The notes under the pieces: model-generated | Databases searched by the model: none | What the model was told of the DNA's origin: nothing | The model's input: only the letters and a program-made list of their open reading frames with translations | Program-made: the position numbers and the translations under genes | In this document: in pieces, positions 4,424-10,384 of the stretch | Layout of the letters: every line of letters begins with the position of its first letter | Position numbering within the stretch: position 1 is the first letter of the stretch | IMG/VR virus record: IMGVR_UViG_3300028965_000054 | Location: 1-27,481 of that record | From: a virus | Lineage: Duplodnaviria; Heunggongvirae; Uroviricota; Caudoviricetes | DNA: 27,481 nt | Reading direction: 5' to 3' (one strand)

Positions 4424-4623
4424 ACGAAAGGACCTGGTTTCGCGCATACATGTGGGCGCTGGTATGCGCCCTCTTTTCTCTCATTCTGTATGCAGGACTA
4501 CTCCCCCGAATGATTTCATCAGACAGCTCCTTCCTGGTATTGCTGGGCATTTTCATTGCCATGCTGTACCCGGCAGGCGTTGTTCGCCTTTTCAGTAAGT
4601 ACATCAAGGAAATCAAACAATGA
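4420..4623 (+). CDS. Small integral membrane protein (two predicted TM helices)
   Basis: 67 aa; two hydrophobic stretches (WALVCALFSLILYAGLL and FLVLLGIFIAMLYPAGVV). Start and stop both overlap neighbours. Confidence 0.6.
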   Translation: MNERTWFRAYMWALVCALFSLILYAGLLPRMISSDSSFLVLLGIFIAMLYPAGVVRLFSKYIKEIKQ

Positions 4624-5450
4624 AGAAATTCAAACTCTTTCAGATTATCCCGCTTTTTGCCGCCATCCTGCTGGTTGGTTGCGATCGCGTTGAACCAGGT
4701 AATGTGGGCATCAAAGTCAACAAACTGGGCGACGATAAAGGCGTCGGTGAAGTGGTTGGCGTTGGCCGCTACTGGACAGGCTGGAATACCGAGGTTTACA
4801 TCTTCCCGACCTTCAAACAAATGAAGACCTACGATGAGCCGTTCAGCTTTCAGATGAGTGACGGCACAACCATCGGCTATCACATCGGTGTGGCCTACAA
4901 GGTTGATCCATCCAAAGTTACCACAGTGTTTCAGACCTACCGCAAAGGCGTGGATGACATTACCGACACTGACCTGCGCCAGAAGATCGCCGATGCACTC
5001 AACCGACTGGCCAGCAAAATGACCACCGATAAGTTTATCGACGGTGGTAAGTCTGAACTGCTGGATTCAGCACTTAAAGATATTCAAGAAGAGATGACCC
5101 CCATCGGCATTCAGGTCATGAGCCTCTCTTATGTCGGTAAACCGGAATATCCGCCAACCGTTATCGACAGCATTAACGCCAAAGTCACGGCAAACCAGAA
5201 AACCCTGCAACGCGAACAGGAAGTCAAGCAACGCGAAGCAGAAGCCAACATGCTGCGCGCAGAAGCTGCCGGACAGGCTGATGCCATTCGCACAAAAGCC
5301 CAGGCTGAAGCCGACGCCATTCGTTTACGCGGTGAAGCTCTGCGCCAGAATCCCGGCGTTATGGAGCTGGAAGCAATCAACAAATGGAACGGCACGCTAC
5401 CGCAATACATGACCAGCAATACCGCTGTTCCGTTTGTTCCGGTGAAGTAA
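4620..5450 (+). CDS. SPFH/band-7 (prohibitin/HflC-like) domain lipoprotein
   Basis: 276 aa; signal peptide with lipobox LVGC (Cys21). Central region followed by Ala/Glu/Arg-rich coiled-coil (QREQEVKQREAEANMLRAEAAGQADAIRTKAQAEADAIRLRGEALRQ) is typical of SPFH architecture. Last gene of coupled operon. Confidence 0.7.
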   Translation: MKKFKLFQIIPLFAAILLVGCDRVEPGNVGIKVNKLGDDKGVGEVVGVGRYWTGWNTEVYIFPTFKQMKTYDEPFSFQMSDGTTIGYHIGVAYKVDPSKVTTVFQTYRKGVDDITDTDLRQKIADALNRLASKMTTDKFIDGGKSELLDSALKDIQEEMTPIGIQVMSLSYVGKPEYPPTVIDSINAKVTANQKTLQREQEVKQREAEANMLRAEAAGQADAIRTKAQAEADAIRLRGEALRQNPGVMELEAINKWNGTLPQYMTSNTAVPFVPVK

Positions 5451-5456
5451 TTAAAC

Positions 5457-5501
5457 CCGGCCAGTGAAAATCGCTGGCCGGAGCAGTATCAGGATTTTTT
5501 T
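5457..5501 (+). terminator. Hairpin then T-run after SPFH gene
   Basis: CCGGCCAG-tgaaaatcg-CTGGCCGG hairpin (5457..5481), T7 run at 5495-5501; the 13-nt gap makes it atypical. Confidence 0.4.
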
Positions 5502-5618
5502 AGCATGCCGTTCTCACAAAAAAACCGCTTGCCATGCCGCAATCAGTCAGGTTACATTTCCGCTGCACCTCATAAAACGGGTGCCGGGTTTCGCAGCCTG
5601 CTGACTAGCAAAGCGCAC

Positions 5619-5639
5619 AACCGCGCCAGCGGTTTTTTT
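5619..5639 (+). terminator. Candidate rho-independent terminator inside the non-coding gap
   Basis: AACCGC-GCCA-GCGGTT stem-loop directly followed by TTTTTTT. Confidence 0.4.
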
Positions 5640-5818
5640 GTGCGTACTGTATTGCCACGTCTTTTTCGCACACGAATTATGGCGGGGCGTACGGGGCCGA
5701 CTTCGGTCGGGCCGGGTTCTTTGCTAGCCGGTACTGCGAACCTCGTACGTCTCGCCACCCACAGTTTCGCAGCTCTGGATGGTGAGTTTTCAAAACTTAC
5801 TAGCAAAGAGGCCACACC

Positions 5819-6049
5819 ATGGCAAACCGCAAACAGCACCGCGCTATCGCGGAGCGTCGTCACATCCAGACTGAAATCGATCGCAGACTCACCCGCGCTG
5901 CACACATCGCCTTTATCATGCAATCCAACACATTGCACAGACTCAACAGCACTATTTCAGCCGACTACTGCGCCGCTGTATTCAGCTATCTGGCGGAAGA
6001 CCTCCTGTCTCTTCAGGATCTCATCCAGCAGCAAAACAAACTCCATTAA
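5819..6049 (+). CDS. Hypothetical small protein upstream of replication genes
   Basis: 76 aa; AAAGAGG RBS 7 nt before ATG. Confidence 0.55.
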   Translation: MANRKQHRAIAERRHIQTEIDRRLTRAAHIAFIMQSNTLHRLNSTISADYCAAVFSYLAEDLLSLQDLIQQQNKLH

Positions 6050-6121
6050 TTCCTGTTCCGGGCCTTTCCTGCACCTTGCGGCGGGAGGCCTTCGCACATC
6101 TGTAGTAAAGAGAATTGCAGC

Positions 6122-6511
6122 ATGATTGACCGTCACGACTTCGTAAAATGGGTGCGCACACAGGACACCCGTCTGGCCCCAAAACTTCAGGCAATGTTTG
6201 ATTTTTATCTCCGTGCCCGCGCCAGCCGGGCACGCACCACAAAACCGGAGAACGCAGACACCCTTTATTTCACCGTGGACGACTGTTACCGCGTAGCTTT
6301 CACGCCACAAGGTCTGGCCCTGTACACCCTGACACCACACGGCGACTCCCTGCTGGCGTATTACAACTCCCCGGCCTCCGTATTTGCGGCAATGCTGGCG
6401 CATCGTACCGCTGGCGGGTGTGCCTCGCTGAGTGAATACACCACTGAATTTAACCGCCTTTCCGTCATCTTCTCGCAGGAGTGGCAGCGCGTGACGGGAT
6501 ACCAGCCATGA
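6122..6511 (+). CDS. Hypothetical protein, translationally coupled to gpA-like gene
   Basis: 129 aa; stop overlaps the gpA ATG (ATGA at 6508-6511). Confidence 0.6.
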   Translation: MIDRHDFVKWVRTQDTRLAPKLQAMFDFYLRARASRARTTKPENADTLYFTVDDCYRVAFTPQGLALYTLTPHGDSLLAYYNSPASVFAAMLAHRTAGGCASLSEYTTEFNRLSVIFSQEWQRVTGYQP

Positions 6512-9348
6512 GTGAGTTTGCATGGAGCTGGAATGAACCGCAGCCAGCTATTGATCCGGACGACTTCGCGAACTTCAGCCAGTTGCCAAAAACCGGACTG
6601 CAACGCGCCATTCGTTACTACTATGAGGCGGACAAAAAGGCTCAGGAAGAACAGGATGCGAAGGAAGAAGCCTTTTTCGCACAATCCGCCATGGGTAAAA
6701 AACTCATGGCATCCCTTGAGGAAGCCGGGCAACGCGAAAAACTGATAAAAAACATCATCAGTAAGCGCCAGGAAATAAAGCAAGACCCGGTGGCCTGCGC
6801 CTTTGCCGAACTGAAGGCACTTCCCGTTTATCTGCGAGACCCCCTGAGCCGCCGCCTCTCTTTTTTACGTAAGAAGCAGGAATCTGACCGCCAGAAAGGA
6901 AAAAACGCCAGGCTGGCAGAACGCTATGCACAAGGAACCCTGCTCAAAATATTCAAACGTCTGAAACGCACTGACGGACGCTGGCTGACACCGTGTTATT
7001 GCTCCCTTGCCGGACGCGAACGCCTGGACGATTTGCTTTACCTGCCGCAGCTCAACAAACACCAGATACAGACGCTGGCCACCATGACGGCGGCGATGTT
7101 CAGCAGCACTTTTGAAACACTCTGCGATAACTTTGGCGCGACCGATGGCGAGCTGACCATGAAAATTGCGCTGAAGGCGTATCAGATGCTGGCCCGCATG
7201 GCGTTACATCTGCACACCATGCCGCCGCATTACGAAGCACTGAGAACGGACAAAGACCGGAAGAACGCACCGAATACGGAGCTGCTGCCGGGTGCCATCC
7301 TTCGCCTGACCTGTGCGGAATGGTGGAAACACAAACTGTGGCTTTTACGTTGCGAGTGGCGGGAAGAACAACTCCGTGCCGCCTGTCTGGTTTCCAGAAA
7401 AACATCACCCTATCTGAGCCAGGACGCGTTAAGCGAGTTTCGCGCACAGCGCGAGAAAACACGCGATTTTCTGAAAAGTTTCATGCTGGAAAATGAAGAC
7501 GGGTTCACGATTGATCTCGAGACGGTGTATTACGCGGGAGTAAGTAACCCGGTTCACCGTAAGGCAGAAATGATGGCCACCATGAAGGGACTGGAACTTC
7601 TGGCCGAAGCCCGTGGCGACAGAGCGGTGTTTCTGACTGTCACCTGCCCGTCAAAATACCACGCAACAACGGAGAACGGTCATCCGAACCCCAAATGGAA
7701 CGGGGCCACCATGCGCGACTCCAGCGATTACCTGGTTAACACGTTTTTTGCGGCGGTCCGCAAAAAACTGAACCGCGACGGTCTGCGCTGGTATGGCATC
7801 CGCACGGTGGAGCCTCACCATGACGGCACTGTGCACTGGCATATGATGGTCTTTGCACATCCGGACGAGATTGAAACCATCGTGTCCCACGTCTGCGATA
7901 TTGCCATTCAGGAAGACCGCCACGAGCTGGGCGATGACATAACTCCGCGTTTTAAGGCGGAGTACGTAGACGGCTCAAAAGGCACACCAACCAGCTACAT
8001 CGCCACCTACATCGGAAAGAACCTGGACAGCCGCGCCGTGGATGGCATCGACCCGAAAACGGGCAAGCCACGCGTTGACCACGAAACCGGAAAATCAATG
8101 GCCGAGAGCGTGGAACGCGCCATCGGCTGGGCGCGCCTTCACCGGGTCCGCCAGTTCCAGTTCTTTGGTATCCCCTCCCGTCAGGTGTGGCGTGAACTGC
8201 GCCGCCTTGCCAGCCAGATGGCACGCAACCCGGAAGGCCCGCAACGGCTGAAGGATGACGCAATGGACGCGGTACTCGCTGCCGCTGATGCCGGATGTTT
8301 TGCCACCTACATTGAGAAACAGGGTGGCGTACTTGTTCCACGCAAAGACTACCTGATTCGCACCGCCTACGACCTCGCAGATGAGCTGAACGATTACGGT
8401 GAACAGAGCGTACAGATTTACGGGATCTGGTCGCCGCTCATTGGGGAGTCTTCCCGCGTATGCACGCATCCGGATAACTGGAAGCTGGTAAGACGCAAAC
8501 CGGAAGCGGAAGACAGCGCCCGCGAAAATGGTTTTGACCTTCAGGGCGGCCCTGCCGCCCCTTGGACTCGTGGCAATAACTGTCCCCGTGTACAGGAAAC
8601 GGACAACAACGGGACAGAACAGCCGGAAGAACGGCCAGCACCGTGGCCGCAGCTCCCTGACGGCGTTGAAGTGAACGAATGGATGCGCTCACTGAAACGG
8701 CACGAACGCCGGGCGCTGATGCGTTCGCTTCGTGACAAACAGGCAAAAAACAGCAGTGATGAAATGCAGAGCTGGACACAGAGCCGCAAACAGCAGCGGC
8801 CTTTGCCTGATAACCACGAATTACTCGCTAAAGAATGGCGGGAGTCTGCTGAATCTCTCGGCCTGCATATCGGTGAACAACAGATGCAGCACCTGTTACG
8901 GGGCGGCAGTCTGTGCGTTGACGGCAGCATCATTGCACCGCAGGGATTTGAAATTGTACGCAAACCGGATACCCGCCCGGACAGCCGAATCACGCAGCTC
9001 TGGCAGCGCCTGAGCCGTAATCACGGCGTAAGCAGCACGGAGATCCGCCATAACCCGGTCGCCAGCTATCTGGCACAGCTGGGGGAATCAGACCCCGAAG
9101 CCGCCGCACGCCTGGCATCCACACTTCAGCAGGACCAGAACACCATGAAAACACCCGTTACCGTACTTTCTGACATGCTGCGCGCCATCCGCGACGCAGA
9201 GCACGAACAGAGAATCAGTGAAACAACTGAACGCGCCCGCCGCAAAGCAGACCTGCTGCGGGGTGGCCTGACCAGTGGAAACAAAAAACAGACAAAAACG
9301 GGATTCACAAATCCCGTAAATGAGCAAAAAACGCGCCGCTATATATGA
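6508..9348 (+). CDS. Rolling-circle replication initiator (P2 gpA-like HUH endonuclease)
   Basis: 946 aa from ATG 6508 (track ORF begins upstream in frame). HUH-type motif GTVHWHMMVFAHP; size and position match P2/186 A. About 185 aa longer than P2 A as I recall it. Confidence 0.85.
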   Translation: MSEFAWSWNEPQPAIDPDDFANFSQLPKTGLQRAIRYYYEADKKAQEEQDAKEEAFFAQSAMGKKLMASLEEAGQREKLIKNIISKRQEIKQDPVACAFAELKALPVYLRDPLSRRLSFLRKKQESDRQKGKNARLAERYAQGTLLKIFKRLKRTDGRWLTPCYCSLAGRERLDDLLYLPQLNKHQIQTLATMTAAMFSSTFETLCDNFGATDGELTMKIALKAYQMLARMALHLHTMPPHYEALRTDKDRKNAPNTELLPGAILRLTCAEWWKHKLWLLRCEWREEQLRAACLVSRKTSPYLSQDALSEFRAQREKTRDFLKSFMLENEDGFTIDLETVYYAGVSNPVHRKAEMMATMKGLELLAEARGDRAVFLTVTCPSKYHATTENGHPNPKWNGATMRDSSDYLVNTFFAAVRKKLNRDGLRWYGIRTVEPHHDGTVHWHMMVFAHPDEIETIVSHVCDIAIQEDRHELGDDITPRFKAEYVDGSKGTPTSYIATYIGKNLDSRAVDGIDPKTGKPRVDHETGKSMAESVERAIGWARLHRVRQFQFFGIPSRQVWRELRRLASQMARNPEGPQRLKDDAMDAVLAAADAGCFATYIEKQGGVLVPRKDYLIRTAYDLADELNDYGEQSVQIYGIWSPLIGESSRVCTHPDNWKLVRRKPEAEDSARENGFDLQGGPAAPWTRGNNCPRVQETDNNGTEQPEERPAPWPQLPDGVEVNEWMRSLKRHERRALMRSLRDKQAKNSSDEMQSWTQSRKQQRPLPDNHELLAKEWRESAESLGLHIGEQQMQHLLRGGSLCVDGSIIAPQGFEIVRKPDTRPDSRITQLWQRLSRNHGVSSTEIRHNPVASYLAQLGESDPEAAARLASTLQQDQNTMKTPVTVLSDMLRAIRDAEHEQRISETTERARRKADLLRGGLTSGNKKQTKTGFTNPVNEQKTRRYI

Positions 9349-9424: not shown

Positions 9425-10384
9425 ATGAAAATTTGTATCGATGACGGCTCCACCAACATCAAGCTGGCATGGACTGAGAACGGCGAACGCCGCAACGCCA
9501 TCAGCCCGAACAGCTTCAAGTCGGAATGGTCTGCGCCGTTCGGTGGCACGCAGCCCGCGAACTACATGCTTGATGGTGTGCGCTATGGTTTTGATCCGGT
9601 CAGCGATCGCTTTGTCCAGACGACCGACACGCAATACCAGTACAGCGATGTGAATGTCATTGCCATTCATCACGCGCTGGTCAAATCAGGCATCACGCCA
9701 CAGGAGGTGGATGTGGTTGTCACCCTGCCACTGAGCGAGTATTTCGACACAAACGCACAGCCGGACATGGCCAACATCAACCGCAAAAAAGCGAACGTTA
9801 TGCGCCCGGTGGAGTACCAGAACGGCGAGACATTCACTATCCGTAACGTGCGGGTTATGCCTGAATCCATTCCGGCTGGCTTTAAAGCACTGGCTGACAT
9901 GAGTCCGTTTGAATCCCTGCTGATTGTGGATTTGGGCGGAACCACGCTGGATGTGGCAAAGGTTCAGGGGCAACTGGCAGGTATCAGCCAGGTGTTTTGC
10001 GATCCACACGTAGGCGTTTCTCTGATGGCCGATGCCGTGCTGTCGGTGATGGCCACCAACGGTATGCGCACCAGTCACCACATCGCCAATACCATTATCG
10101 AACATCGCCACGATGAAGCCTGGCTGCGCCAGCACATCCACAATGACACGCATTACGCCAGCCTGATGGCAGTTATTCGTGAAAAGGAGGAAACACTGAA
10201 ACAACGCGTGATCCGCGCGCTGGCGGGTTTTTCGGGTTACGGGCGGGTGATGGTTGTAGGTGGAGGAGCGGAGATTGTGGCACCCGCTATCCGCGAAGCC
10301 TGCGGAGTTAATGCGACTTTCATCGCGGACGGGGTGCCACAATTTGCTCTGGTTAATGGGCTGTACGCAATGGACAAGGAGTAA
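9425..10384 (+). CDS. parM: ParM/StbA-like actin-type partition ATPase
   Basis: 319 aa; N-terminus MKICIDDGSTNIKLAW...ISPNSFK...YSDVNVIAIHHAL closely parallels recalled plasmid R1 ParM (MLVFIDDGSTNIKLQW...ISPNSFK...YSDVNVVAVHHAL). AAGGA RBS. Confidence 0.88.
   Translation: MKICIDDGSTNIKLAWTENGERRNAISPNSFKSEWSAPFGGTQPANYMLDGVRYGFDPVSDRFVQTTDTQYQYSDVNVIAIHHALVKSGITPQEVDVVVTLPLSEYFDTNAQPDMANINRKKANVMRPVEYQNGETFTIRNVRVMPESIPAGFKALADMSPFESLLIVDLGGTTLDVAKVQGQLAGISQVFCDPHVGVSLMADAVLSVMATNGMRTSHHIANTIIEHRHDEAWLRQHIHNDTHYASLMAVIREKEETLKQRVIRALAGFSGYGRVMVVGGGAEIVAPAIREACGVNATFIADGVPQFALVNGLYAMDKE

What the first reader, a model, noticed from the sequence alone, without database searches (positions are those of the whole stretch)
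5451..5818. Structured ~370-bp non-coding gap upstream of the replication genes
The only large gap in an otherwise packed early region. It holds two candidate terminators (5457..5501, 5619..5639), a stable hairpin with a UUCG tetraloop (GGCCGAC-TTCG-GTCGG(G)CC, 5695..5713), and three copies of the 9-mer CTAGCAAAG (5605..5613 and 5800..5808 forward, 5719..5727 reverse). CTAG is normally rare in enterobacterial DNA. A possible promoter (TTGCCA-N17-TTACAT near 5527) could give a ~90-110 nt sRNA ending at the second terminator. Track ORFs here are low-complexity and lack RBS.
Basis: seen in the sequence. Interest (0 to 1): 0.6.

Follow-up and report, generated by a model that had tools for sequence, protein, structure and literature searches.

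The report
Phage RNA immunity switch (IsrK–C4)
The "structured gap" holds two known phage regulatory RNAs, an IsrK/seqA-type leader RNA and a C4/CI-type antisense RNA, whose short matching boxes most likely shut off the anti-repressor-like and replication genes downstream; it is real and probably functional, but of a kind already described in phages P1, P4 and Gifsy-1.

Summary
The 368-bp gap (5451..5818) contains a predicted promoter, an intrinsic terminator, a UUCG hairpin and three copies of CTAGCAAAG (expected 0.1).

Rfam explains most of it. 5565..5639 is an IsrK-family RNA (65.5 bits, threshold 50). 5675..5762 is a C4 antisense RNA (82.8 bits, threshold 45).

The 9-mers are RNA pairing boxes, not protein sites. 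The reverse copy (b') sits in the loop of C4 hairpin 2. The forward copies are its targets: b1 inside IsrK and b2 over the Shine-Dalgarno of the gene starting at 5819.

In 23 distinct P88-like relatives, variation is concentrated in these six boxes. The changes are compensatory: 95–100% of cells stay paired, against 27–52% in slid controls.

P4 (seqA–CI RNA–seqC), P1 (a1b1–c4–a2b2–icd) and Gifsy-1 (isrK–STnc1160–anrP) share the architecture.

Here the module sits in a P2-type (P88-like) E. coli prophage. It lies upstream of a P4-epsilon-like gene, an unknown gene and replication gene A. P2 and 186 lack it.

Verdict: an unannotated new member of a known kind. Interest is modest.

The parts
5457..5501 (+). 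11-bp GC-rich hairpin (5457..5481) just after the SPFH stop codon, followed by a T7 run 13 nt downstream. Probably the 3' stem-loop or a weak terminator of the SPFH cassette, and not part of the conserved RNA module.
   Evidence: Fold -21.8 kcal/mol, z -3.9. Not called a terminator by the scan. Homology with most relatives starts only at about 5515.
5529..5558 (+). Predicted sigma-70 promoter of the module, in the position of P4 PLE and Gifsy-1 PisrK: TTGCCA - 18 nt - TACATT, with the start at about 5565.
   Evidence: Consensus scan. Both hexamers are kept in all 23 P88-like modules, while the spacer diverges in L025 and L073. The predicted start coincides with position 1 of the IsrK model.
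5565..5639 (+). IsrK / P4-seqA-type leader sRNA of about 75 nt: hairpin 1, hairpin 2 presenting box a1 in its loop, a single-stranded linker with box b1, then an intrinsic terminator.
   Evidence: Rfam RF01394 65.5 bits (threshold 50). Overlapping sub-threshold c4-a1b1 match. P4 seqA and Gifsy-1 isrK match the same model.
5590..5596 (+). Box a1 (UUCGCAG), complementary to a'.
   Evidence: a1-a' paired in 99.4% of cells across 23 relatives, with 5 of 7 pairs changed on both sides.
5605..5613 (+). Box b1 (CUAGCAAAG), complementary to b'.
   Evidence: b1-b' paired in 99.0% of cells, with 7 of 9 pairs changed on both sides.
5619..5639 (+). Intrinsic terminator of IsrK (AACCGC-GCCA-GCGGUU plus a U-run). 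It must be read through to make C4 and the downstream mRNA.
   Evidence: Terminator scan. Stem invariant in 23 relatives. Read-through was shown for the Gifsy-1 homologue (PMC4825925).
5675..5762 (+). C4 / P4-CI-type antisense RNA, with the mature form predicted at about 5681..5759 by alignment to the annotated P1 c4. It has a 17-bp outer stem (5680..5696 with 5741..5757), hairpin 1 with a UUCG loop (5697..5710) and hairpin 2 (5711..5732).
   Evidence: Rfam RF01695 82.8 bits (threshold 45). MFE -47.7 kcal/mol, z -4.8, identical to the Rfam consensus fold. Outer stem 100% paired with 2 compensatory pairs. P1 c4 ends taken from the annotation.
5718..5727 (+). Box b' (UCUUUGCUAG) in the 12-nt loop of hairpin 2.
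5734..5740 (+). Box a' (CUGCGAA) in the single-stranded junction between hairpin 2 and the outer stem.
5766..5772 (+). Box a2 (UUCGCAG), a target of a' on the mRNA leader, 7 nt after the predicted C4 3' end.
   Evidence: a'-a2 paired in 100% of cells, 5 of 7 pairs compensatory. An exact complement of at least 7 nt is present in 43 of 43 diverse loci, against 0 of 1466 cross-locus controls.
5800..5811 (+). Box b2 (CUAGCAAAGA, 5800..5809), which overlaps the Shine-Dalgarno AAGAGG (5806..5811) of the gene starting at ATG 5819.
   Evidence: b'-b2 paired in 94.8% of cells, 5 of 10 pairs compensatory. Sequence read directly. Same position as b2/icd in P1 and seqC/RBS in P4.
5819..6049 (+). First regulated gene: a 76-aa protein distantly related to the P4 epsilon helper-derepression (anti-repressor) protein.
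   Evidence: Pfam PF25738 22.1 bits, below the cutoff of 27. BLASTP to P4 epsilon: 32% over 50 aa, E 2e-5 in a small database. Some GenBank and PGAP records call the homologue 'derepression protein'.
6122..6511 (+). 129-aa protein of unknown function (phrog_3237). Its stop overlaps the likely ATG of gene A (ATGA at 6508..6511).
6481..9348 (+). P2-type replication endonuclease gene A. This is the longest ORF; the likely start is ATG 6508. It is the distal cargo of the regulated unit.
   Evidence: Pfam Phage_GPA 426.7 bits. ORF scan.

Best explanation
The gap is an RNA-based immunity or anti-immunity module of the P1 immI / P4 immunity / Gifsy-1 isrK type, inserted in the early operon of a P2-type (P88-like, Xuanwuvirus) E. 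coli prophage.

Shown by sequence:
- One promoter (5529..5558) starts transcription at about 5565.
- Box a1 lies in a hairpin loop of the IsrK-like RNA, and box b1 in its single-stranded linker.
- In the C4-type RNA, b' lies in the hairpin-2 loop and a' in the junction.
- The same boxes recur as a2 and b2 on the mRNA leader. b2 covers the first four bases of the Shine-Dalgarno sequence of the epsilon-like gene.

Inferred by homology with Gifsy-1, P1 and P4:
- Most transcripts stop at the leaky terminator (5619..5639) and give the ~75-nt IsrK/seqA-like RNA.
- Read-through transcripts contain the C4/CI-type RNA (~5681..5759). It is probably cut out by RNase P and 3' trimming, as in P1 and P4.
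- Free C4 pairs with a2 and b2 and blocks ribosome binding.
- The untranslated leader then suffers premature (Rho-type) termination. The epsilon-like protein, orf129 and replication protein A are therefore kept off, both in the lysogen and in superinfecting phages of the same a/b specificity.
- The a1b1 (IsrK) copy competes for the same C4 boxes. In cis it can neutralise unprocessed C4. In trans it can act as an anti-antisense RNA that relieves repression, as shown for Gifsy-1 IsrK.

The a and b boxes form a two-part specificity code that differs among otherwise near-identical phages.
For: - Family matches: Rfam IsrK and C4 are both above their gathering thresholds.
- C4 fold: z -4.8 and identical to the family consensus.
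- Same order and spacing of boxes as the curated P1 record, a1-b1-c4-a2-b2-icd. P4 is the same, with GTGAGAA/TTCACAGG boxes on both sides of the CI RNA followed by GGAGG-ATG.
- Gifsy-1 isrK is followed 25 nt later by a C4-family RNA and then the anti-repressor gene.
- Covariation in 23 distinct P88-like modules: a'-a2 100%, b'-b2 94.8%, a1-a' 99.4% and b1-b' 99.0% of cells paired. 5/7, 5/10, 5/7 and 7/9 pairs respectively are changed on both sides. No shuffle of 500 reached the observed values, and slid controls gave 27-52%.
- Variable columns are concentrated in the six boxes: 41 of 57 inside against 70 of 208 outside, Fisher p 3e-7.
- In 43 diverse viral loci with 31 different hairpin-2 loops, the locus's own a2 has an exact complement of at least 7 nt in 43/43, against 0/1466 cross-locus pairs.
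- In the predicted fold of the read-through transcript, a1b1 pairs with a'b' in cis.
- Literature: IsrK-dependent translational activation of the read-through mRNA, and prophage induction, in Gifsy-1 (PMC4825925). [quoted passage not shown] IsrK and STnc1160 are highly expressed in lysogens (PMC7067206).
Against: - No expression data exist for this prophage. Promoter activity in the lysogen, terminator read-through, RNase P processing and repression are all inferred by homology.
- The c4-a1b1 Rfam model scores only 20.5 bits against a threshold of 46.7.
- Published roles of the a1b1/IsrK element disagree. In P4 it is needed for immunity; in Gifsy-1 it activates expression.
- The function of the 76-aa protein is uncertain. 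It scores below the Pfam cutoff. P88, whose repressor is a different, 93-aa C protein, carries a 76-aa gene in the same position, which argues against a simple self-anti-repressor.
- Whether repression spreads to gene A is untested.
Confidence: 0.85

Rival explanations
1. The repeats are DNA operator sites for a phage protein (wHTH/MarR-like, Rrf2 or the repressor), and the hairpins are incidental.
For: Three copies of a rare 9-mer lie in one intergenic region. At the DNA level, coordinated change of all copies is also what a change of operator specificity would produce.
Against: - The inverted copy always lies in the loop of hairpin 2 of an RNA that matches Rfam C4 at 82.8 bits.
- b2 overlaps the Shine-Dalgarno sequence, as in P1 and P4.
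- A second, independent box set has the same three-copy layout.
- Several departures from exact identity are G-U-compatible: UG or GU in 14 cells.
- a and b boxes reassort independently among phages.
- Homologous systems in P1, P7, P4 and Gifsy-1 were shown experimentally to act through RNA (PMC4825925, PMC3632133; Citron & Schuster 1990 as cited in PMC2864571).
Confidence: 0.03
2. The module is mainly an induction switch of the Gifsy-1 type rather than an immunity device. On this reading the read-through mRNA folds into a translationally silent structure, and short IsrK, accumulating under certain conditions, opens it in trans. That turns on the epsilon-like anti-repressor and gene A.
For: The architecture is the same as the Gifsy-1 isrK-C4-anrP locus. 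For that locus the mechanism was shown with compensatory mutants and 30S footprinting (PMC4825925). The predicted fold of 5565..5835 pairs IsrK boxes with C4 boxes. The first regulated gene is anti-repressor-like.
Against: In the predicted cis fold the ribosome binding site at 5806..5811 is not sequestered. In P4 and P1 the C4-type RNA is the repressor, and the same elements give immunity (PMC3632133). The two readings are not exclusive, and this one describes the derepression arm of the same circuit.
Confidence: 0.3
3. The region encodes an 'Ash family' protein. The long ORF 5505..6125, or a shorter one from AUG 5679, is translated and is the functional product.
For: - The ORF matches Pfam Phage_ASH (23 bits) and PHROG 'transcriptional regulator' families at E 5e-15.
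- This frame is open in 22 of 23 P88-like modules. It is open in 30 of 41 diverse loci, against 3 and 5 for the other two frames.
- Gifsy-1 'orf45' starts at the equivalent AUG and was reported as translated (PMC4825925).
Against: - The Pfam match is below the cutoff of 26.
- In P4 the Phage_ASH domain maps exactly onto seqA + CI RNA + seqC. From the P4 literature as I recall it, that determinant is an RNA.
- Variable columns show no third-codon-position excess: 38/88, 40/88 and 33/89.
- Variation is compensatory at the RNA level.
- There is no Shine-Dalgarno sequence before 5505 or 5679.
- The ORF overlaps the 76-aa gene out of frame.
- Openness of the frame is largely inherited with the conserved RNA sequence.
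Confidence: 0.05

Closest known systems
Satellite phage P4 immunity region (PLE - seqA - CI RNA/seqB - seqC - kil/eta - epsilon - ... - alpha)
   Same: The same two Rfam families occur in the same order: isrK 60.8 bits on seqA and C4 74.9 bits on the CI RNA. The two-box complementarity lies on both sides of the RNA, with the downstream box next to a GGAGG-ATG. A leaky terminator follows the first box pair. The downstream operon holds an epsilon-type gene and ends in the replication initiator.
   Different: - The host element here is a complete P2-type phage with head, tail, gene A and ogr-like genes, not a satellite.
- The epsilon-like gene is the first gene after b2 rather than the third.
- The replication protein is P2 gpA, not the alpha primase.
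- The spacer between IsrK and C4 is 36 nt here and 108 nt in P4.
- The box sequences differ, and no full specificity was shared with P4-like loci in the sample.
Phage P1/P7 immI operon (a1 b1 - c4 - a2 b2 - icd - ant1/2)
   Same: A C4-family RNA is present (68.8 bits in P1). Spacing is almost the same: b1 to c4 is about 66 nt in both, and b2 ends 10 nt (P1) or 9 nt (window) before the start codon. A terminator-like hairpin lies between b1 and c4. The regulated genes counteract the primary repressor.
   Different: - The P1 upstream element matches c4-a1b1 (51 bits) rather than isrK. The window matches isrK (65.5 bits) and c4-a1b1 only weakly (20.5 bits).
- The first gene is epsilon-like, not icd, with no detectable similarity.
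- No Ant1/2-type anti-repressor follows.
- The P1 promoters carry a C1 operator. No equivalent operator was looked for or seen here.
Salmonella Gifsy-1 isrK - orf45/STnc1160 - anrP locus
   Same: isrK (79.3 bits) is followed 25 nt later by a C4-family RNA (69 bits) and then an anti-repressor gene. IsrK is a terminated sRNA whose read-through makes the mRNA (PMC4825925). Both RNAs are abundant in lysogens (PMC7067206).
   Different: Gifsy-1 is lambdoid, and the module lies next to the Q antiterminator and controls AnrP and then AntQ. The published model treats the C4 region as a small ORF (orf45) rather than as a C4 RNA. The downstream genes here are different.
P2 and 186 early operons (type P2-like phages)
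   Same: The gene order int - repressor - cox/apl - small ORFs - gene A is shared. Gene A is translationally coupled to the ORF before it. The 186 record notes this, and an ATGA overlap suggests it here.
   Different: Neither P2 nor 186 has any IsrK or C4 match in the early region, even at E 0.01. 186 controls its anti-repressor Tum through LexA, not through an RNA.

Membership tests
C4 antisense RNA (Rfam RF01695; P1/P7 c4, P4 CI RNA) | Covariance-model score at or above the gathering threshold | tested here: met
   82.8 bits against 45, full-length match 1-87, E 4e-15.
C4 antisense RNA (Rfam RF01695; P1/P7 c4, P4 CI RNA) | Long outer stem enclosing two hairpins, kept in relatives | tested here: met
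   The MFE equals the consensus fold, z -4.8. All three helices are 100% paired in 23 relatives. The outer stem has 2 pairs changed on both sides and 5 changed on one side.
C4 antisense RNA (Rfam RF01695; P1/P7 c4, P4 CI RNA) | Two single-stranded boxes (a', b') complementary to a2 and b2 downstream, with b2 at the ribosome binding site of the first gene | tested here: met
   a' 5734..5740 pairs with a2 5766..5772. b' 5718..5727 pairs with b2 5800..5809, which overlaps the SD at 5806..5811. Covariation. Same layout in P1 and P4.
C4 antisense RNA (Rfam RF01695; P1/P7 c4, P4 CI RNA) | A second copy of the targets (a1, b1) upstream on the same transcript | tested here: met
   a1 5590..5596 and b1 5605..5613, with 99% of cells paired and 12 of 16 pairs compensatory.
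C4 antisense RNA (Rfam RF01695; P1/P7 c4, P4 CI RNA) | Mature RNA processed from a longer transcript (RNase P at the 5' end) | not testable with these tools
   Only the conserved AAUUAU|G context and the 3' GCCACC are seen. Both are shared with P1 c4 at its annotated ends.
C4 antisense RNA (Rfam RF01695; P1/P7 c4, P4 CI RNA) | Represses expression of the downstream genes in trans and confers immunity | not testable with these tools
   This needs reporter fusions or superinfection assays.
IsrK / P4 seqA leader RNA (Rfam RF01394) | Covariance-model score at or above the gathering threshold | tested here: met
   65.5 bits against 50, full-length 1-77. P4 seqA scores 60.8 and Gifsy-1 isrK 79.3 with the same model.
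IsrK / P4 seqA leader RNA (Rfam RF01394) | Own promoter and intrinsic terminator giving a ~75-nt RNA | tested here: met
   Consensus promoter with the start at about 5565, and a terminator at 5619..5639. Both are conserved in 23 relatives. This is prediction only; no transcript data exist.
IsrK / P4 seqA leader RNA (Rfam RF01394) | Lies directly upstream of a C4-type RNA and is complementary to it | tested here: met
   36-nt spacer. a1b1 pairing with a'b'.
IsrK / P4 seqA leader RNA (Rfam RF01394) | Hfq binding | not testable with these tools
   No experimental data for this locus.
c4-a1b1 motif (Rfam RF03163) | Covariance-model score at or above the gathering threshold | tested here: not met
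   20.5 bits against 46.7 at 5552..5604. P1 (51 bits) and Gifsy-1 (48.1 bits) pass. The window element is filed under IsrK instead.
P4 epsilon 'Derepression protein' family (Pfam PF25738), for the 76-aa gene | Profile score at or above the Pfam cutoff | tested here: not met
   22.1 bits against 27, E 1.3e-4. P4 epsilon itself scores 170 bits. BLASTP to epsilon gives 32% over 50 aa, E 2e-5 in a small database. It is a distant relative at best.
   A stable stem is present, but the T-run begins 13 nt after it. The scan does not report it.

The most novel reading that the evidence does not exclude
A complete P2-type (helper-type) phage lineage carries the immunity and derepression cassette otherwise known from its satellite P4. 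An IsrK-C4 RNA switch gates an epsilon-like protein and the phage's own replication gene A.

The two boxes form a combinatorial code. In 30 P88-like loci there are 5 a-types and 6 b-types, giving at least 10 specificities. None is shared in full with P4-like satellites or lambdoid phages in the sample.

On this reading the RNA layer is a second, fast-evolving immunity system. It lets such phages exclude relatives, or resist or manipulate satellites and co-resident P2-like prophages, independently of the protein repressor. It would also mean that P4's left operon and the P88-like replication module share an origin.
Probability: 0.35. Interest if true: 0.5.

Novelty: new member of a known kind. 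Interest (0 to 1): 0.3.

Why it matters
**Annotation.** The gap is left unannotated, or carries spurious ORFs, in the GenBank and RefSeq records examined. The 751-base query covering it (5400..6150) is matched over at least 80% of its length in 1088 of 5426 complete E. coli genomes. Recognising it as an IsrK-C4 module gives a concrete regulator for the replication gene and the epsilon-like gene of a very common prophage type.

**Scope of the system.** The P1/P4-type RNA immunity system extends to complete P2-type phages.

**Experimental use.** The relatives provide a natural set of at least 10 orthogonal two-box specificities for testing RNA-based immunity.

**Limits.** The finding does not reveal a new kind of system.

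Tried and rejected
- tRNA/tmRNA scan of the window: nothing, so the structured RNA is not tRNA-like by ARAGORN.
- First viral-collection pattern had one N too many between hairpins 1 and 2 and found a single locus. The corrected pattern found 120+.
- First covariation control allowed G-U pairs and wide search windows, and did not discriminate own from foreign loci. It was replaced by Watson-Crick-only, position-restricted tests and by column-wise counts on an alignment of close relatives.
- A MAFFT alignment of all 43 diverse loci mis-registered the hypervariable boxes, giving 68-91% paired. It is used only as supporting evidence.
- Second promoter-like site TTGCCA-17-AATTAT at 5652..5680: rejected as probably not a promoter. 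Its -35 hexamer is not conserved in relatives, and AATTAT is the conserved 5' flank of the C4 family.
- Weak Rfam matches (Ms_AS-5, JUMPstart, SNORA31) are far below threshold and were treated as noise.
- NCBIfam gave nothing for the 76-aa and 129-aa proteins.
- Literature searches found no description of this module in P88-like or P2-like phages. The key P4 paper PMC176756 is not held, so P4 and P1 mechanism details rest on PMC4825925, PMC3632133 and my own knowledge.
Full report
**1. What is in the sequence**

The window is a P2-type prophage of E. coli, close to phage P88 (genus Xuanwuvirus, Peduoviridae).
- The 751-base query 5400..6150 matches P88 at 87% identity.
- It matches many E. coli chromosomes at up to 99%. 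At least 80% of the query is covered in 1088 of 5426 complete genomes.

Gene order is: integrase, a 211-aa double-HTH repressor, Cox, small early genes, an SPFH-domain gene (4620..5450), the 368-bp gap, a 76-aa gene (5819..6049), a 129-aa gene, replication gene A (Phage_GPA, 427 bits), then ParM.

Neither the RefSeq record nor the P88 record annotates any RNA in the gap.

- CTAGCAAAG occurs three times, against 0.10 expected. These account for 3 of only 5 CTAG sites in 27.5 kb.
- The scan finds the promoter TTGCCA-18-TACATT at 5529..5558 and the terminator at 5619..5639.
- The UUCG hairpin is at 5697..5710.
- The first 'terminator' is a strong hairpin (z -3.9), but its T-run lies 13 nt away and the scan does not call it. 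It sits outside the block conserved in most relatives, so I assign it to the SPFH cassette.

**2. Identity**

An Rfam scan of the whole window gives exactly two matches, both in the gap and both above the curated thresholds.
- isrK (RF01394) at 5565..5639: 65.5 bits against a threshold of 50.
- C4 antisense RNA (RF01695) at 5675..5762: 82.8 bits against a threshold of 45.

The predicted transcription start coincides with position 1 of the IsrK model. The C4 segment folds on its own into the family consensus: a 17-bp outer stem and two hairpins, -47.7 kcal/mol, z -4.8.

**3. The repeats are RNA pairing boxes**

- The reverse copy of the 9-mer (5719..5727) is in the 12-nt loop of C4 hairpin 2 (box b').
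- The forward copies are b1 (5605..5613, in the single-stranded linker of IsrK) and b2 (5800..5809).
- b2 overlaps the Shine-Dalgarno AAGAGG (5806..5811) of the ATG at 5819.
- A second set has the same layout. a' (CUGCGAA, 5734..5740) lies in the C4 junction. TTCGCAG occurs at 5590..5596 (a1, in the loop of IsrK hairpin 2) and at 5766..5772 (a2).

This is the layout annotated in the curated P1 record: a1, b1, c4, a2, b2, icd, with nearly the same distances.

P4 shows it too. Rfam isrK hits the seqA leader (60.8 bits) and C4 hits the CI RNA (74.9 bits). The boxes GTGAGAA and TTCACAGG lie on both sides, the downstream pair next to GGAGG-ATG.

In Gifsy-1, isrK is followed 25 nt later by a C4-family RNA covering the published 'orf45'/STnc1160 region, and then by the anti-repressor gene anrP.

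**4. Test by comparison**

A degenerate pattern for hairpins 1 and 2 retrieved more than 120 loci from IMG/VR.
- Among 103 distinct segments there are 31 different hairpin-2 loops and 26 different a' regions.
- The locus's own a2 contains an exact complement of at least 7 nt in 43 of 43 representative loci. Cross-locus pairs reach this in 0 of 1466.
- The same test gives 42/43 against 27/1466 for a1, 32/43 against 8/1466 for b2, and 29/43 against 40/1466 for b1.

The cleanest test uses 23 distinct P88-like modules that are otherwise almost identical (alignment A1, mean column identity 87%).
- Variable columns are concentrated in the six boxes: 41 of 57 inside against 70 of 208 outside, p 3e-7.
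- The changes are compensatory:

| Pairing | Cells paired | Pairs changed on both sides |
|---|---|---|
| a'-a2 | 100% | 5 of 7 |
| b'-b2 | 94.8% | 5 of 10 |
| a1-a' | 99.4% | 5 of 7 |
| b1-b' | 99.0% | 7 of 9 |

- No shuffle of 500 reached the observed values, and sliding the partner by 1-3 columns drops pairing to 27-52%.
- The promoter hexamers, the IsrK terminator and the C4 stems are invariant or change compatibly.

**5. Mechanism (inferred by homology)**

- One promoter makes mostly the terminated IsrK-like RNA.
- Read-through yields C4, probably released by RNase P. The P1 mature ends map to G5681 after AAUUAU and to the GCCACC at 5754..5759.
- C4 pairs with a2 and b2, occludes the ribosome binding site of the 76-aa gene and, by polarity, should reduce expression of the 129-aa gene and gene A. 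The stop of the 129-aa gene overlaps the likely ATG of A (ATGA at 6508..6511). The 186 record notes similar coupling and a translation-dependent terminator at A.
- The a1b1 copy competes for C4. In the predicted fold of the whole read-through RNA, a1b1 pairs with a'b' in cis. In Gifsy-1, short IsrK acts in trans to switch on translation and induce the prophage (PMC4825925).
- IsrK and STnc1160 are abundant in Gifsy-1 lysogens (PMC7067206).

No step has been measured for this phage.

**6. The regulated genes**

- The 76-aa protein is a distant relative of P4 epsilon, the protein that inactivates the P2 repressor. Pfam 'Derepression' gives 22 bits against a cutoff of 27. BLASTP gives 32% identity over 50 aa. 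P4 epsilon itself scores 170 bits.
- P88 has a different repressor (a 93-aa C protein) but a 76-aa gene in the same position. Its target is therefore open.
- C4 modules in the viral sample fall into three main contexts: P88-like (76 aa, 121/129 aa, gpA, ParM), lambdoid (a protein of about 181 aa; such loci are annotated as antirepressor or Rha in phage records) and P4-like (64, 75, 106 and 777 aa, the last being alpha).
- P2 and 186 have no IsrK or C4 match in their early regions, even at E 0.01. The module is therefore a lineage-specific addition to the P2-type early operon.

**7. Rivals**

- *Protein operator sites.* This cannot be excluded from DNA-level covariation alone. It is very unlikely given the position of the inverted copy in an RNA loop, the overlap of b2 with the ribosome binding site, the second box set, the G-U-compatible departures and the experimental record of the family.
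- *An 'Ash' protein.* ORF 5505..6125 weakly matches Pfam Phage_ASH and PHROG regulator families. In P4 the Phage_ASH domain maps exactly onto seqA + CI RNA + seqC. Substitutions here show no codon-position bias.

**8. Verdict**

The finding is real and its non-coding, regulatory reading is right. It is a member of well-described RNA families, so I score it as a new (unannotated) member of a known kind. The modest extra interest lies in the P2-type context and in the combinatorial a/b specificity.

Noticed in passing
window 5505..6125 (+); L124 (P4) 8168..8812 (-): The Pfam 'Ash protein family' (PF10554) appears to be a translation of the RNA immunity region. In P4 its domain covers nt 8704..8330, which is isrK/seqA + CI RNA + seqC (82 bits). 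The window ORF through IsrK+C4 also hits it (23 bits), along with PHROG 'transcriptional regulator' families. PGAP names such ORFs 'ash family protein', and RefSeq P4 still lists a 'cI gene product' CDS there. The P4-satellite census PMC8628076 used PF10554 as its epsilon marker, whereas P4 epsilon itself is PF25738.
   Followed up: partly
window 5561..5825 and 41 diverse C4 loci: The reading frame of the AUG in the conserved AAUUAUGG is free of stops across about 255 nt in 30 of 41 diverse loci, against 3 and 5 for the other two frames. It is open in 22 of 23 P88-like modules, with no codon-position bias. This is probably inherited with the conserved RNA sequence, but selection for an open frame (compare Gifsy-1 orf45) is not excluded.
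   Followed up: partly
P88-like loci, e.g. L002, L009, L019, L020, L024, L043, L047: The a and b boxes reassort independently. The b' loop CTTTGGTTG occurs with three different a' sequences, and the a' of the window occurs with four different b' loops. That gives 10 combinations in 30 loci. No full combination is shared with P4-like or lambdoid loci in the sample.
   Followed up: partly
L048 7051..7951; L114 8649..10216: Two viral contigs carry two C4-type hairpin cores on the same strand, about 870 and 1570 nt apart. These are tandem modules or adjacent elements.
   Followed up: no
window 6508..6511: The stop codon of the 129-aa gene overlaps the likely start of replication gene A (ATGA), which suggests translational coupling. 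The longest ORF for A starts earlier, at GTG 6481.
   Followed up: no
window 4620..5450 and 5457..5481: An SPFH/Band-7 gene (weakly HflK/C-like) with its own strong 3' hairpin sits in the early operon just upstream of the module. Most P88-like relatives have different sequence upstream of about 5515, so it looks like a separate cargo cassette.
   Followed up: no
window 9425..10384 and downstream: An integrated P2-type prophage carries ParM-like and partition/stability genes and an Rrf2-family regulator after gene A. This is annotated in the 99%-identical record L001. It suggests a plasmid-type segregation module in this lineage.
   Followed up: no
L126 (Gifsy-1) 34131..34214 (-): The region published as 'orf45'/STnc1160 in Gifsy-1 matches the C4 antisense RNA family at 69 bits. 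The c4-a1b1 model (48.1 bits) overlaps isrK. The Gifsy-1 locus is therefore a P1/P4-type a1b1-C4-a2b2 module.
   Followed up: yes
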